Origin: an uncultured Holophagales bacterium
GTDB lineage: Bacteria > Acidobacteriota > Thermoanaerobaculia > Multivoradales > UBA5704
Length of the DNA stretch: 64,000 bases
Direction: 5' to 3'
NCBI GenBank assembly: GCA_963842525.1
Contig: CAWJGT010000034.1
Location: forward strand, 320,001 to 384,000
Shown: piece after piece, positions 34,301 through 39,420 of the stretch
Layout of the letters: each line of letters opens with the position of its first letter
Position numbering within the stretch: the stretch's first letter is position 1
Notes under the pieces: model-generated
The model's input: the letters and a program-made list of their open reading frames with translations, nothing else
What the model was told of the DNA's origin: nothing
The model's database searches: none
Made by a program: the position numbers and the translations under genes

Positions 34301-34988
34301 CCTGGACTTCCTGGGCCGCATCGACCAGCAGGTCAAGATCCGGGGTTTCCGGATCGAGCCGGGCGAGGTCGCGGCGGCCCTCGAGCGCCATCCCTCCGTG
34401 CGCAACGCGGTGGTCGCGGCCTGGGACGCGGGTGGCGACCTGCGCCTGGCCGCCTGGGTCGTGCCGCGGGAGGAAGCCGCGGGCGAAGCGGCGGCGCTCC
34501 CGGCGCAGCTCGGCGGCTTCCTGCGGGCGTCCCTGCCGGCCCATATGGTGCCGTCGGCCTTCGTGATGATCGACGACCTGCCCCTCACACCCAGCGGCAA
34601 GCTGGACCGGGGCCGCCTGCCCCACCCCGGCTCCGTCCGCATCGGCCGCGAGGACCGCTACGTCGCCCCGCGCAACGCCACGGAGCAGCAGCTCGTCGAG
34701 ATCTGGGCCGGCGTGCTCGGTCTGGAACGGGTGGGCGTCGACGACAGCTTCCTGGAGCTGGGCGGGCACTCGCTCCTCGCCATGAAGCTCATCCTGCGCG
34801 TGCGCTCCGAGCTGGGGATCGACCTGCCGCTACGGATGCTCTACGGCACCAACACCCTGGCCGACATGGCCCTGGCAGTGGCGAACGCCGAGGCCCAGGG
34901 CCTCGACGCCGACCTTCTGGCCGAATTGCTGGAGGAGGTCGAGCAGACGTCGCCCGACCAGCTCGATGCGGAGCTCGCCGATGAATGA
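28394..34988 (+). CDS. Bimodular NRPS: docking-C-A(Ser)-T-C(modAA-like)-A(Tyr)-T, one indel near 31000
   Basis: ORFs 28394-32695 and 30846-34988 join at [25 protein letters not shown]; code DVWHVSLVDK; T GGDSI; second C PFELVSAEDR...YPLARLQAGMLFHS...FHHSVLDGWS; code DASTVAAVCK; T GGHSL. Confidence 0.9.
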
Positions 34989-37900: not shown

Positions 37901-39420
37901 CCGGCCTCTCCTCCCGTTCCCCGCTTCCCCTCCCCGCCTGGGCTCGGGGCGCGGGCTCCCGGCTCGCCGGGCTCGGCCGGCGTCTGGCGGCGGCCGTTCC
38001 CGCCCTCCAGACAGGCAACCTCGCAAGACGGACCGCATCGCACGGTCTGCGCATGTACGCCATCCTCTGGATCGGACAGACCGTCTCCGGCATGGGGACG
38101 GCGCTCGGGACCTTCGCCTTGGGGGTCTGGCTTTTCCAGGAGACGAAATCGGTAACCCAGTTCTCAGGGCTGATGCTCTCCAGCGTCATCACCGGCCTGC
38201 TCCTGAACCCGGTCGCCGGGTCGTTGGCCGACCGCGTCGACCGCCGCCGGGTGCTGTTCCTCTGCAATTTGGCCTCGATGGCGATGACGCTCACCCTGGC
38301 GACGGCTCTCTGGCAGGGCTTCATGAGGCCCGAATACAGCTACATCATGGCGGTGGGCATGACCTGTATCGGCGTCCTGCAAGGCCCGGCTTTCGTCGCC
38401 TCGATCAGCACGCTGGTACCACGCCACCTCCTGGTCCGCATCACCAGCATGGCGCAGACCTCCGGGATGGTCCTCGCCATGATCGCCCCCCTGCTGGCAG
38501 GCTTCCTGGTGGGGAAGCTCAGCTACCACGGCGTGATCTTCATCGACGCCTGCACCTTCCTGTTCGCCGCCCTGACGCTGTTGCTGGTGCGCATCCCTCA
38601 ACCGCCGGCCTCCCAGCACTCGGGCCGCGACAACCCCTTCTACCGCGACATCCTCGTCGGCTTCAGCTATGTCAAGGCCCGGCCGGGCCTGCTCAGCCTC
38701 CTGATCCTCTTCGGCATCTCGAACTTCTCCATCGGCACGGTGCAGATCCTGCTGACGCCTCTCATCCTGAGCTTCGCCACCCCCGAGCAACTGGGCAGCG
38801 TGAACTCCGCCGCCCTCGCCGGGCTCTTCCTCGGTGGTCTGGTCCTCAGCATCTGGGGCGGGCCGCAACGGAAGGTCTGGAGCATCTTCGGCGCCCTGGT
38901 CGCCCAGGCGCTCATCCTGTTCCTGGGCGGCCTGCAGCCCAACCTGCAACTGGTGATGGGCGCCGTCTTCGCCTTCATGCTCGCCGGCCCCTTCGTGGGC
39001 AACAGCAGCCAGGCGATCTGGCAGAGCAAAGTGCCTCTGGACCTCCAGGGCCGCGTCTTCGCCGTGCGCGGCCTCATCGCCACCGGGGCCCTGCCGCTGG
39101 CCTACTCCATCGCAGGACCTCTCGCCGACCACGTCTTCGAGCCCATGCTCTCTCCCGGCGGGCTGCTCGCCGGCACGGTGGGCCGGGTGATCGGCGTCGG
39201 CGACGGGCGCGGCGTCGGCTTCCTCTTCATACTCCTGGGGGCCCTCGTCCTTACCGCCACCCTGGCCTCCTTCCTCAACCCGCGCCTGCGCAACGTGGAG
39301 ACCGAGATCCCCGACGCTGCCGGTCCCGATCACGAACCCGATTCCTCGGCTCCCACGCCGGGCAATCCGAGCCTCGCAATCGGCCCTCAGGAGGCGATGA
39401 CCCAACCGTCAGCTCGATGA
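34981..39420 (+). CDS. Fusion protein: docking helix - degenerate heterocyclization (Cy) domain - inactive A domain - T domain - MFS exporter
   Basis: Single uninterrupted frame; Cy hallmarks RHEMLRTVVLPDG, WPLFEI, DLILIDG; truncated Cys-type A lacking TSGSTGxPK; T FFLSGGDSV; from about 38040 a multi-TM MFS (LWIGQTVS...GSLADRVDRRRV...WQSKVPLDLQGRVFA). Confidence 0.88.
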   Translation: MNEAERRIASLSPKQRELLMRKMRERGTPPVAPRTPEIPRIPDGPTDRHAPVPPTDFQEALWLSRSGIFDLGGSGANVYLEYEFPGIVWQLAASLNDALRTLIERHEMLRTVVLPDGQLQLLSEVPPYEVEVADLSGRGAERIEERRLQIREEMRYANRPPDRWPLFEIVLHQLDEGRIRLHARFDLILIDGAARGVLLSELVLVLNLPDQPLPELDVSFLDHVRAVAAFRETETYARAHAYWMERLPHLPPPPVLPLARALAPEDVPRVVKRDQEVLGAEDWQTLCGRAARAGITPTTAVSAAFAEVLRSWSAAPDFSVGFGGTYRPPIHPHIERVLGSFTIIHLLAFEDGPGSFIDRARRLQERIAADLDHQEVSGHQVLREYNRLHRVGARSAMPIQLNSVVGYGSNAQAAAAPPASPDAPAPEGGAQPAPRPMIQVDLTEVDLLATLPQVLLFWVVLPNLQGGLSLVSQAVEEVLPGELVPEMIEAYRDLLSRLATLDAAWSEERPAQWGKSRQEALPAGPTPDGAEDLYRRIEEQARTSPEAPALITPKGTLTYREVLDRGPLAALAPDGKPLPAGTGAALLDLVHRLELRPGDRLFSLAPAGSQPALADLLASLAAGAAVVLPAPGEERDPARLAALAAQHRVTVWSSPPALLEAVVTHAEGRRRAAFPPLRLALLHRDAAPSTLAARLGALCPGARLTFTWSSPEIPLAAVAGPFAPSDPAAEAAFEPLAGRRLQVLDASGVPRPAWALGELWAGGPDGPLAYTGERAQLLPDGRIALRGAGTAPPPEALGYGAETRFVESALQRHPALRHALVEWRAGGPRGRLLAWVLPRPGRPPSAKELRRHLRAAGLPAHMVPDSFTFLERLPLTADGAVDRSLLLPPPSAEPAAAPGAWGEVETELAALWEEVLGRRPTTLDDDFFLSGGDSVAAVRLLARVTRRWGRDVDPGELFARPTLAGLSAAVRRGAGLSSRSPLPLPAWARGAGSRLAGLGRRLAAAVPALQTGNLARRTASHGLRMYAILWIGQTVSGMGTALGTFALGVWLFQETKSVTQFSGLMLSSVITGLLLNPVAGSLADRVDRRRVLFLCNLASMAMTLTLATALWQGFMRPEYSYIMAVGMTCIGVLQGPAFVASISTLVPRHLLVRITSMAQTSGMVLAMIAPLLAGFLVGKLSYHGVIFIDACTFLFAALTLLLVRIPQPPASQHSGRDNPFYRDILVGFSYVKARPGLLSLLILFGISNFSIGTVQILLTPLILSFATPEQLGSVNSAALAGLFLGGLVLSIWGGPQRKVWSIFGALVAQALILFLGGLQPNLQLVMGAVFAFMLAGPFVGNSSQAIWQSKVPLDLQGRVFAVRGLIATGALPLAYSIAGPLADHVFEPMLSPGGLLAGTVGRVIGVGDGRGVGFLFILLGALVLTATLASFLNPRLRNVETEIPDAAGPDHEPDSSAPTPGNPSLAIGPQEAMTQPSAR

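What the first reader, a model, noticed from the sequence alone, without database searches (positions are those of the whole stretch)
34981..39420. Assembly line ends in a dead Cy-A pseudo-module with an intact T domain fused to an MFS exporter, and no thioesterase is visible
Seen: one continuous ORF joins an N-terminal docking-like helix (RIASLSPKQRELLMRKMR, same type as LSDKRKLLLEKLLRK on the previous NRPS), a Cy fold, a shortened A domain, a T domain with its Ser (GGDSV) and a full MFS; there is no stop and no clear RBS before the MFS part. Against known motifs the catalytic sites are lost: Cy DxxxxDxxS reads DLILIDGAA, PVVFTS reads PIQLNS and SQTPQVxLD reads ATLPQVLLF (Thr/Asp cyclodehydration dyad gone). 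The A domain, derived from a Cys-type A (RDPARLAAL...VTVWSSPPAL), lacks the A3 loop, the Asp235 equivalent and the A10 Lys (LPLTADGAVDR). Inference: the module may be repurposed as a membrane tether and hand-off device that docks the megasynthetase on its exporter, possibly receiving the chain on its T domain or using the Cy for release, coupling termination to export.
Basis: partly seen in the sequence, partly recalled or inferred. Interest (0 to 1): 0.85.

Follow-up and report, generated by a model that had tools for sequence, protein, structure and literature searches.

The report
Exporter-fused NRPS termination module
The last gene of a giant peptide-antibiotic-type assembly line fuses a remodelled ring-forming domain, a burnt-out loading domain and an intact carrier domain to a membrane export pump, and this layout is a conserved family that takes the place of the usual release enzyme.

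Summary
The ORF is real: ATG 34981 to stop 39420, one frame, N-terminal docking helix, Cy-fold domain, truncated A, T with its Ser, and a DHA3-type MFS.

It is not a private decay product. I collected 51 proteins with this Cy-like domain ("Cy*"). In a tree they form one clade (support 0.991), with none of 60 sampled true Cy domains inside. All 51 are followed by a T domain, 0 carry a TE, and 31 are fused to the MFS.

- **First-reader error.** DxxxxD is kept in the window.
- **Cy\*.** The cyclodehydration residues (SQT, the Asp of PQVxLD, mostly the Thr) are gone family-wide and replaced by conserved hydrophobic residues.
- **A domain.** It is dead in every member examined and eroded to anything between 25 and about 565 residues.
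- **T domain.** Its Ser is invariant.
- **Split forms.** Close relatives and a paralog in the same genome keep the MFS as a separate, abutting gene.
- **Release domains.** No TE or R domain lies on the ~122-kb line.

Best reading: a functional chain-termination and hand-off subunit coupled to its exporter. The release chemistry is unknown.

The many frameshifts upstream are genome-wide +1 insertions, about a third at GAGCTC-derived heptamers, and most likely assembly errors.

The parts
1..34988 (+). Downstream third of a ~122-kb NRPS/PKS line (C34:237326-359420). It consists of C-A-T modules and KS-AT parts. The last subunit (28394-34988) is C-A-T-C-A-T.
   Evidence: Pfam on the ORFs. Custom-HMM domain map of the whole line. 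No TE or R hit on this stretch.
34674..34988 (+). Last T domain of the upstream subunit, plus an acidic C-terminal tail (LLAELLEEVEQTSPDQLDAELADE) and the stop codon.
   Evidence: The stop overlaps the next gene's ATG (ATGAATGA).
34981..35085 (+). N-terminal basic helix (MNEAERRIASLSPKQRELLMRKMRERG), a putative docking element.
   Evidence: R12, P18 and L24 are invariant in 27 fused members. The motif is present in 48 of 51 family proteins and absent in the 3 whose Cy* is fused to an upstream T. Weak Pfam CSLinker hit, E=0.034.
35086..36525 (+). Cy* domain. It has the heterocyclization-domain fold, keeps DxxxxD and lacks the cyclodehydration residues.
   Evidence: PDB hits EpoB Cy (3e-60) and BmdB Cy (3e-52). 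Motif states. Monophyletic clade.
36526..37362 (+). A* core remnant. An A1-like motif is followed by a deletion of A2-A3, and A4-A8 are degenerate.
   Evidence: No invariant column in residues 511-912 of alignment A1. Occupancy 0.68.
37363..37656 (+). A-subdomain remnant (AMP-binding_C), in which the A10 Lys is replaced.
   Evidence: Majority-residue fraction 0.59.
37699..37890 (+). T (carrier) domain. The phosphopantetheine Ser (GGDSV) lies at nt 37780-37782.
   Evidence: PF00550 at 47.3 bits. S939 is invariant in 27 of 27.
37891..38040 (+). T-MFS linker, derived from the tail of the T protein, the former intergenic region and the former MFS start (NLARRTASHG).
   Evidence: Junction comparison with the split forms.
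38041..39420 (+). MFS exporter-type domain (DHA3 / EntS / Mef-like) with motif A LADRVDRRR, followed by a C-terminal tail and the stop.
   Evidence: PF07690 at 92.1 bits, PF05977, and TIGR00900 at 170.7 bits. Many invariant columns.

Best explanation
This is the functional last subunit of a TE-less NRPS/PKS line. It is a chain-termination and hand-off module, physically coupled to the product's exporter.

Shown:
- The architecture is docking helix, Cy*, vestigial A, T with its Ser, and MFS.
- The layout is conserved as a family.
- It sits at the end of lines that have no TE or R domain.
- It alternates between fused and abutting-gene forms with one MFS subfamily.

Inferred:
- The upstream subunit's acidic tail docks on the basic N-terminal helix.
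- Cy* can no longer cyclodehydrate. It takes the finished chain from the last upstream T domain and passes it to the phosphopantetheine arm of its own T domain, either to the bare thiol or to an acceptor loaded in trans.
- That T domain sits on the cytoplasmic face of the MFS, so release and export happen at the pump.
- The A domain is only a spacer, free to erode.

The chemistry of the final release (hydrolysis, intramolecular cyclisation or transfer) is not known.
For: - **Family.** 51 Cy*-type proteins: 51 of 51 are followed by T, 0 of 51 have a TE, 31 of 51 are fused to the MFS and 48 of 51 have the N-terminal motif.
- **Clade.** The 51 Cy* domains are monophyletic (support 0.991), with 0 of 60 sampled true Cy domains inside.
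- **Conservation by domain.** The T-domain Ser and many Cy* and MFS columns are invariant in 27 fused members. No column in residues 511-912 is invariant. Majority-residue fractions are Cy* 0.63, T 0.65, MFS 0.67 and A core 0.43.
- **A domain.** Dead in all 34 members screened by motif. The alignment of 10 members agrees. The Cy*-to-T spacer ranges from 25 to 565 residues.
- **Active site.** Of 51 Cy* domains, 49 keep the second DxxxxD Asp and 39 the first. The acceptor-side SQT and Asp are replaced by conserved hydrophobic residues.
- **MFS linkage.** In 10 of 10 genomic loci that reach past the T domain, the MFS is fused (3), abutting (6) or 2.9 kb downstream (1).
- **Own genome.** Three lines end this way. 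No PF00975 or PF07993 hit lies on this line or on contig C19. For the C3 line the nearest TE is ~77 kb downstream, on the next line. Other TE and R hits lie inside long NRPS-type ORFs.
- **Junction.** Split forms show stop, then Shine-Dalgarno, then ATG (MAR...). The window reads NLARR in frame.
- **Docking.** Acidic upstream tail against a basic N-terminal helix. The helix is missing when Cy* is fused in cis.
- **Precedent.** In cereulide synthesis, the C* domain of CesA is tethered to the CesCD transporter, and this is required for synthesis (PMC7527721, abstract and section 12 read).
Against: - No experiment exists. Everything rests on architecture and conservation.
[quoted passage not shown] A Cy domain without that Asp may therefore be a poor catalyst of any acyl transfer.
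- The first DxxxxD Asp is replaced in 12 of 51 members.
- Split forms show that the covalent link is dispensable.
- The same MFS subfamily also follows ordinary T-TE termini in at least 13 of 80 loci, so the pump itself is a general NRPS exporter.
- No step that would cleave the thioester on the terminal T domain has been identified.
- Stand-alone TE genes exist elsewhere in the genome, for example C3:41176 in a 340-aa ORF. One of them could act in trans.
- The family was collected by similarity to this protein, and the Cy* label was set by an HMM score cut-off. The census is therefore not an unbiased sample.
Confidence: 0.5

Rival explanations
1. It is an ordinary last elongation module of the 'A-less Cy module' type. 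Its T domain is aminoacylated in trans by an upstream A domain, Cy* makes one last peptide bond without ring closure, and release is spontaneous or done by an unlinked enzyme. The MFS fusion is then only co-localisation of a cluster exporter.
For: - The module descends from a Cy-A-T module. A* matches the A domains that accompany true Cy domains at 31-37% identity.
- DxxxxD and the T-domain Ser are kept.
- My motif-anchored reading gives Ser-type-looking pocket codes for five A domains of the line, among them the penultimate one. The assignment is from recall.
- A true Cy-A-T module lies at C34:280614-284630.
- In-trans loading of A-less Cy modules is established for other systems (recalled, not checked here).
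Against: - The residues that true Cy domains use around the Cys/Ser/Thr acceptor are not merely relaxed. They are replaced by conserved hydrophobic residues across the clade.
- The module is always terminal and never followed by a TE (0 of 51), so the release problem remains.
- The last upstream A domain gives the pocket code DASTVAAVC, which I recall as aromatic-type and not Cys-type.
Confidence: 0.2
2. It is a purely structural tether. Cy*, A* and T are all catalytically inert and only dock the megasynthetase on the pump, as proposed for CesA C* and CesCD. Release happens elsewhere.
For: - The catalytic Asp, the SQT residues and mostly the Thr are lost.
- D480A almost abolishes peptide formation in PchE.
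- The cereulide system is a precedent for a non-canonical C domain bound to a transporter.
- The docking helix is conserved.
Against: - The Ser of the T domain is invariant in 27 of 27 fused members, and a T domain follows Cy* in 51 of 51. A mere spacer would not need a phosphopantetheine site.
- The second DxxxxD Asp is kept in 49 of 51.
- No alternative release domain is found on the line.
Confidence: 0.15
3. It is a decaying relic of a Cy-A-T module that happened to fuse with the downstream exporter gene and has no function of its own.
For: - The A core is eroded to different lengths even among relatives 56-82% identical to each other.
- A contig of a ~90% relative skips about 800 nt of it.
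- In the window, the fusion needs only the loss of a stop and of the MFS start codon.
Against: - The Cy* clade spans proteins down to 37% identity. Sources name their organisms as Thermoanaerobaculia, Herpetosiphonaceae and Chloroflexia.
- Conservation of Cy* and T equals that of the MFS.
- Family-specific conserved residues have been gained.
Confidence: 0.05
4. The fusion is an assembly artefact. An indel error removed the stop between a T-ending gene and the MFS gene.
For: - This assembly carries many +1 indels: 78 split C or A domains genome-wide.
- Split forms exist in relatives.
Against: - 30 other fused proteins from other assemblies are on record, including P0003, P0004 and P0005 at 75-82% identity with an aligned in-frame junction.
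- There is no AGCT at the junction.
- The ancestral ATG is changed to CTC and no Shine-Dalgarno sequence remains.
Confidence: 0.02

Closest known systems
Canonical NRPS heterocyclization modules (Cy-A-T), for example EpoB, BmdB, HMWP2/Irp2 and PchE
   Same: The fold and most structural residues are shared (PDB hits at 3e-60 to 3e-27). About 60 conserved columns are shared. DxxxxD is present. A* matches the A domains that accompany true Cy domains (31-37% identity).
   Different: - The catalytic Asp (D1226 in BmdB, D449 in EpoB, D480 in PchE; PMC8807600 passage) is F here. It is D in 59 of 60 true Cy domains and in at most 1 of 51 Cy*.
- The Q and T of SQTPQ are lost in 51 of 51.
- The Thr is N here.
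- The A domain is dead.
- The module is terminal and coupled to an MFS.
A-less or A-dead Cy modules loaded in trans (HMWP1 Cy3-PCP3, BlmIII).
   Same: A Cy domain and a T domain with no working A domain of their own.
   Different: As I recall them, those Cy domains keep the cyclodehydration residues, make rings, and are followed by TE or further modules. Here the ring-forming residues are gone, nothing follows but an exporter, and the A domain is lost or dead in every member examined.
Actinomycete 'non-ribosomal peptide synthetase/MFS transporter' fusions (P0084, P0106, P0119 and similar; names given by NCBI)
   Same: A terminal NRPS module fused at its C-terminus to an MFS carrying the same Pfam families (PF05977, PF07690). 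An Atlas cluster of 85 members has this kind of composition.
   Different: Their precomputed Pfam lists include PF00975 (TE) and a full AMP-binding domain, which suggests C-A-T-TE-MFS. The window family has no TE and a dead A domain.
Cereulide synthetase CesA C* domain tethered to the ABC transporter CesCD (PMC7527721)
   Same: A non-canonical condensation-type domain at the end of a subunit is physically linked to the cluster's exporter at the membrane. That linkage is needed for synthesis (abstract and section 12 read).
   Different: The link is non-covalent, the partner is an ABC ATPase rather than an MFS, the line still has a TE, and no carrier domain sits between the C* domain and the pump.
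Release by terminal condensation-type domains (fungal C_T, crocacin CroK C2).
   Same: A C-superfamily domain takes the place of a TE at the end of a line.
   Different: As I recall them, those domains are the last domain and act on the upstream T. Here a further T domain always follows the C-type domain.
MmpL7-PpsE coupling of a PKS to an RND transporter (as cited in PMC7527721, section 12)
   Same: A terminal megasynthase subunit interacts with its exporter.
   Different: It is a PKS with an RND pump and a non-covalent contact. Synthesis does not depend on it, according to that section.

Membership tests
NRPS heterocyclization (Cy) domain | Sequence and fold similarity to solved Cy domains | tested here: met
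   EpoB 5t7z at 3e-60, BmdB 5t3e at 3e-52, and Irp2, HMWP2 and PchE.
NRPS heterocyclization (Cy) domain | DxxxxD core motif | tested here: met
   DLILID in the window. In the clade, the first Asp is kept in 39 of 51 and the second in 49 of 51.
NRPS heterocyclization (Cy) domain | Catalytic Asp of PQVxLD (BmdB D1226, EpoB D449, PchE D480) | tested here: not met
   F in the window. D in 59 of 60 true Cy domains, and in one family member (P0020). The role of this residue comes from PMC8807600.
NRPS heterocyclization (Cy) domain | Thr of PVVFTS and Gln-Thr of SQTPQ | tested here: not met
   The window reads N and T-L. In Cy* the Thr position is N 32, T 12 and D 7 of 51, and Q and T are each 0 of 51. 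In true Cy domains each is 54 of 60.
Adenylation domain (ANL superfamily) | A3 P-loop, A4 Asp, A5, A8 and the A10 Lys | tested here: not met
   None of the motifs is found in the window or in the 34 family members screened by regular expression, apart from one A7 match. The alignment of 10 family members with 5 active A domains agrees. PF00501 matches only profile positions 198-377.
Peptidyl carrier (T) domain | PF00550 above its cut-off, with the Ser of GGxS | tested here: met
   47.3 bits against a cut-off of 20.8. S939 is invariant in 27 of 27.
Peptidyl carrier (T) domain | Phosphopantetheinylation and loading | not testable with these tools
   Needs mass spectrometry of the expressed protein.
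MFS exporter of the DHA3 / EntS / Mef type | MFS_1 and MFS_3 profiles, and motif A | tested here: met
   PF07690 at 92.1 bits (cut-off 33.4) and PF05977 at 32.3 bits (cut-off 27). LADRVDRRR is seen in the translation. G1085, D1089, R1090 and R1093 are invariant.
MFS exporter of the DHA3 / EntS / Mef type | Subfamily model cut-off and number of TM helices | tested here: inconclusive
   TIGR00900 scores 170.7 bits against a cut-off of 319.6. A crude hydropathy scan finds 9 strong segments in the MFS part. Transport direction is not testable.
Actinomycete NRPS/MFS fusion (TE-containing) | TE domain in the fused protein | tested here: not met
   No PF00975 hit in the protein. 0 of 51 in the family by my TE model.
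Transporter-tethered C* domain (cereulide type) | Non-canonical C-type domain bound to the cluster's transporter | tested here: inconclusive
   Fusion or adjacency to the MFS in 10 of 10 loci. The partner is an MFS, not an ABC ATPase. No binding data exist.

The most novel reading that the evidence does not exclude
The terminal carrier domain is a hand-over arm. Cy* has been converted from a ring-forming condensation catalyst into a trans-thioesterase that moves the finished chain onto the bare phosphopantetheine thiol of a T domain anchored on the exporter. The thioester is then resolved only at, or in, the pump, so the product is never free in the cytoplasm. This would be a TE-independent mode of NRPS termination in which release is coupled to export.
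Probability: 0.2. Interest if true: 0.9.

Novelty: new variant of a known kind. Interest (0 to 1): 0.66.

Why it matters
How very large assembly lines let go of their product, and how toxic products are kept out of the producer's cytoplasm, are open questions. This work defines a sequence-recognisable family (docking helix, Cy*, T, with or without an A remnant, with a fused or abutting MFS). The family marks the end of TE-less lines in bacteria that the sources name as Thermoanaerobaculia, other Acidobacteriota and Chloroflexota.

The family gives genome miners a new termination signature. It also gives enzymologists a compact test object. The smallest fused members are about 1050 aa (Cy*-T-MFS), and these could test whether a carrier domain can feed an exporter directly.

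Four literature searches found no paper describing an NRPS-MFS fusion. The library does not hold most subscription journals, so this is not proof of absence.

Tried and rejected
- **Reads.** No served run holds more than 6% of the sampled words. Logan contigs of 4 runs were laid on 19500-39499. Among the pieces listed (the list is cut), the contigs identical to the window (X2) do not cover the junction or any frameshift site, so neither was tested directly.
- **Complex prediction.** I ran T plus tail (residues 1030-1146 of the split homologue) against its separate MFS. The verdict was 'no answer', score 0.00. This is not evidence either way.
- **Conserved accessory release enzyme.** Genes downstream of the MFS differ from locus to locus:
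  - DUF3326 in the window
  - epimerase and methyltransferase
  - CmlA-type hydroxylase and MacB
  - FAD monooxygenase
  - racemase
  
  No hydrolase recurs.
- **Flanks of the line.** Pfam finds a PhyH dioxygenase upstream and nothing hydrolase-like. I did not search other hydrolase families (PF12697, PF00561, PF00144) genome-wide.
- **Hidden domain pieces in other frames of 34966-39437.** None found.
- **A-domain pocket codes.** I used motif-anchored rules recalled from memory. Only 14 of 26 A domains gave a code, and assignments are low-confidence. They did not settle the in-trans loading question.
- **Close Cy\* orthologues in 40 relatives.** Only two (59% identity, both in the same genus) stand out. 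The rest of the hits, at 34-44%, cannot be told from true Cy domains by identity alone.
- **Atlas search.** It returned only generic NRPS clusters and one NRPS+MFS cluster.
- **Earlier scan notes.** They hold nothing on this locus.
- **Supplementary files.** They are closed, so the PchE mutant data (Supplementary Fig. 14) were not seen.
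Full report
**What is there**

The window is G000:C34:320001-384000 of a 9.95-Mb, 34-contig, ~72% GC genome. 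An ORF runs from ATG 34966 (more likely ATG 34981) to the stop at 39420. Pfam finds these domains:

| Domain | Residues | Note |
|---|---|---|
| Condensation | 99-382 | partial profile match |
| AMP-binding | 596-769 | only profile positions 198-377 of 384 |
| AMP-binding_C | 811-884 | |
| PP-binding | 912-975 | |
| MFS_1 | 1034-1372 | |

NCBIfam places the MFS nearest the DHA3 'H+ antiporter' model, and the EntS and Mef models also match. None of the 6 long ORFs scanned in the other frames has a Pfam hit, so no domain pieces appear to hide behind frameshifts. Residue numbers are those of P0001, which starts at 34966. The database copy of the protein has 1479 aa, which fits a start at 34981. 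That ATG overlaps the upstream stop in ATGAATGA.

**The line it ends**

GC3 frame tracking and a custom-HMM domain map show one + strand NRPS/PKS line from C34:237326 to 359420. That is about 122 kb. Some 35 modules have an A domain, with PKS stretches in between, and there is one true Cy-A-T module at 280614-284630.

Genome-wide searches find 14 PF00975 (TE) hits and 11 PF07993 (R) hits. None lies on C34 between 1 and 521 kb. The flanks hold a PhyH dioxygenase upstream and a DUF3326 gene downstream, and nothing hydrolase-like by Pfam. So 'no thioesterase visible' holds for the whole line, not just for the window.

**It is a family, not a private wreck**

A whole-length search returned full-length relatives with the same Pfam composition. 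They run from 74% down to 37% identity. Source names include Thermoanaerobaculia and Herpetosiphonaceae. I added hits from the 1.84-billion-protein representative library and two paralogs from this genome, and collected 51 proteins whose Cy-like domain scores at least 480 bits with a family HMM. The census:

- 51 of 51 have a T domain after it.
- 0 of 51 have a TE.
- 31 of 51 are fused to the MFS.
- 48 of 51 begin with the conserved helix RIAALSPEQRELLLRRLRER. The three without it have Cy* fused in cis behind an upstream T.

In a tree with 60 randomly sampled true Cy domains and ordinary C domains as outgroup, the 51 form one clade (support 0.991) with no true Cy inside. The label was set by an HMM built from the family, so the grouping is partly circular. 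The tree and the motif states below are independent of that score.

**State of the active sites**

The domain is clearly of Cy type (EpoB 3e-60, BmdB 3e-52). Both Asp residues of DxxxxD are there.

| Site | Window | Cy* clade (of 51) | True Cy (of 60) |
|---|---|---|---|
| DxxxxD, first Asp | D | 39 | 53 |
| DxxxxD, second Asp | D | 49 | 60 |
| Asp of PQVxLD | F | F 18, L 17 | D 59 |
| Gln of SQTPQ | T | 0 | 54 |
| Thr of SQTPQ | L | 0 | 54 |
| Thr of PVVFTS | N | T 12, N 32, D 7 | 54 |

The Asp of PQVxLD is the residue equivalent to BmdB D1226, EpoB D449 and PchE D480. PMC8807600 describes it as the base for ring closure (passages read).

The replacements are conserved hydrophobic residues, and the clade has about 25 conserved residues of its own in the Cy* domain, for example G197, R200, N391, R399 and Q478. 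Cy* is therefore remodelled, not rotting. One caution: in PchE, D480A also nearly abolished peptide formation, so catalytic competence cannot be assumed.

**The A domain is the part that decays**

None of 34 family members screened has A3, A5, A8 or the A10 Lys. One has an A7 match. An alignment of 10 members with five active A domains shows the same in members with a full-length A domain, which read for example YVIYTDANAEPPLAAMI at A3.

The spacer between Cy* and T falls into length classes:

| Spacer length (aa) | Proteins | Content |
|---|---|---|
| ~25 | 8 | no A at all |
| ~115 | 11 | A subdomain only (by size) |
| 300-330 | 10 | partial A |
| 385-400 | 8 | partial A (includes the window) |
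| 450-565 | 14 | full-length dead A |

A 5080-nt contig of a ~90% relative skips about 800 nt of the window's A*. Alignment A1 has no invariant column between residues 511 and 912. By contrast S939 (the T-domain Ser) and many Cy* and MFS columns are invariant in 27 of 27. A* matches the A domains that accompany true Cy domains (31-37%), and none of the window's own upstream A domains is among the 30 best hits.

**Fusion and fission**

In a same-genus genome (G004, locus L015), the 1146-aa Cy*-A*-T protein ends '...DSGE*'. The MFS then starts two bases later at ATG (MARQVASHGMRMY), behind an AGGAG.

In this genome's C3 paralog, an in-frame TAG is followed by EGEQ-MARKSASHGLRIY. The window reads ...LQTGN-LARRTASHGLRMY in frame, with ATG changed to CTC and no Shine-Dalgarno sequence. 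P0005 and P0010 still have MARR in frame.

Of 10 genomic loci with Cy* that reach beyond the T domain:

- the MFS is fused in 3 (window, C19 paralog, L020)
- it abuts in 6 (C3 paralog, L015, L002, L018, L022, L033)
- it lies 2.9 kb downstream in 1 (L053)

The covalent link is thus optional, but the partnership is constant.

The same MFS subfamily also follows ordinary ...T-TE genes in at least 13 of the 80 loci fetched by MFS patterns. It is fused behind TE-containing modules in actinomycete proteins that NCBI names 'NRPS/MFS transporter'. The pump is therefore a general NRPS exporter, and Cy*-(A*)-T occupies the slot that TE holds elsewhere.

**Own-genome contrast**

Three lines end in Cy*-(A*)-T plus MFS: this one, C19:294742-300411 (fused) and C3:1502812-1515588 (split by TAG). 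No TE or R hit lies on this line or on contig C19. For the C3 line the nearest TE is ~77 kb downstream, on the next line. Other TE and R hits lie inside long NRPS-type ORFs, for example C3:1424969, C9:1416893, C6:109872, C18:13994 and C3:556118.

**Docking**

The upstream subunit ends with a T domain and an acidic tail (LLAELLEEVEQTSPDQLDAELADE). The new subunit begins with a basic helix. This fits an inter-subunit docking pair, but it was not tested.

**Mechanism**

Shown:

- the architecture
- its conservation
- its terminal position
- the absence of TE and R domains
- the constant MFS partnership

Inferred: the chain passes from the last upstream T domain through Cy* to the arm of the terminal T domain, which sits on the cytoplasmic N-terminus of the pump. 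Release and export follow there.

Three facts fit an acceptor that is not an aminoacyl group: universal loss of A, hydrophobic remodelling of the acceptor side of Cy*, and the invariant Ser on the T domain. A bare thiol is one candidate. None of these facts proves it.

The rivals are:

- a last elongation step with in-trans loading
- a purely structural tether, as with CesA C* and CesCD (PMC7527721)
- direct release by Cy*

No conserved accessory hydrolase was found next to these modules. A complex prediction for the split T tail and MFS gave no verdict.

**Assembly quality**

The upstream genes show domain-splitting frameshifts. Eleven lie on this line, and nine of those are +1 insertions next to AGCT.

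Genome-wide I found 78 split C or A domains against 526 full-length ones. Of the 78, 65 are +1 shifts. GAAGCTC or GAGCTTC lies at 22 of the 65 +1 junctions, against 1.2% of control windows.

Contigs of ~91-93% relatives in three soil runs lack the extra base at window 20204. I read these as systematic assembly errors at a GAGCTC-type motif, not as pseudogenes. At about one per 9 kb, an intact 4.4-kb ORF is unremarkable.

The fusion itself does not depend on this assembly, because 30 other fused proteins are on record.

**Novelty**

Four literature searches found no description of an NRPS-MFS fusion or of this module. Databases only carry automatic names such as 'MFS transporter'.

I file it as a new variant of known kinds: the Cy-module lineage, TE-less termination, and synthetase-exporter coupling. 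If the hand-off reading is right, it would be a new mode of termination.

Noticed in passing
window 218-234, 6237, 14219-14227, 20204, 27163-27171 and 30985-31001. Also C34:248703, 252035, 302352-302363, 313133-313139 and 313494.: Domain-splitting frameshifts in the upstream NRPS/PKS genes. Nine of the 11 on this line are +1 insertions beside AGCT (GA[A]GCTC, GAGCT[T]C, GAGCT[G]C). Genome-wide there are 78 split C or A domains, of which 65 are +1 shifts. GAAGCTC or GAGCTTC lies at 22 of those 65 junctions, against 1.2% of control windows. Contigs of close relatives lack the extra base at 20204. This is most likely systematic assembly error at a modified GAGCTC-type motif. I do not know the sequencing platform.
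   Followed up: yes
whole genome G000: The palindrome CAGCTG occurs only 287 times, against 12246 for GAGCTG, 11029 for CAGCTC and 8411 for GAGCTC. This strong avoidance suggests a restriction-modification system aimed at that site.
   Followed up: no
G000:C19:294742-300411 (+) and G000:C3:1502812-1515588 (-): Two paralogous terminal modules in the same genome. One is Cy*-A(full-length, dead)-T-MFS, fused. The other is ...A(with an FkbM-type methyltransferase insert)-T-Cy*-Asub-T, then an in-frame TAG, then a 455-aa MFS.
   Followed up: yes
P0031-P0034; L022:11304-15029: A sub-branch carries about 510 extra soluble residues after the T domain with no Pfam hit. By eye it looks like a glycosyltransferase, which I did not verify. 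The MFS is a separate gene overlapping its end.
   Followed up: partly
L020:11419-21399: In a genome the source names as Chloroflexia, the stop-to-stop frame that holds Cy*-A*-T-MFS runs on without a stop. It continues through a Peptidase_M28 and a lantibiotic-dehydratase N-terminal domain, 3327 aa in all. I did not resolve whether this is one protein or several genes.
   Followed up: no
C34:252039-252248: A T domain is cut by a frameshift and is followed after about 200 nt by an A domain, with no C domain between them. This may be a collapsed repeat in the assembly.
   Followed up: no
window 39461-40792: A DUF3326 gene (E=1e-88) lies directly downstream of the fused gene. It did not appear among the downstream ORFs I scanned beside other Cy*-MFS loci.
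   Followed up: partly
window 42548-44194: An ORF with TIR_2, a weak AAA_16 hit and DUF7779, a defence-type protein, lies 3 kb downstream of the cluster. An earlier scan note on this genome describes a TIR defence cassette.
   Followed up: no
L019:3352-3714 (-): A TE-like hit on the opposite strand at the contig end, just downstream of a fused A*-T-MFS gene. It could be a trans-acting thioesterase in that genome. It is the only such case seen.
   Followed up: no
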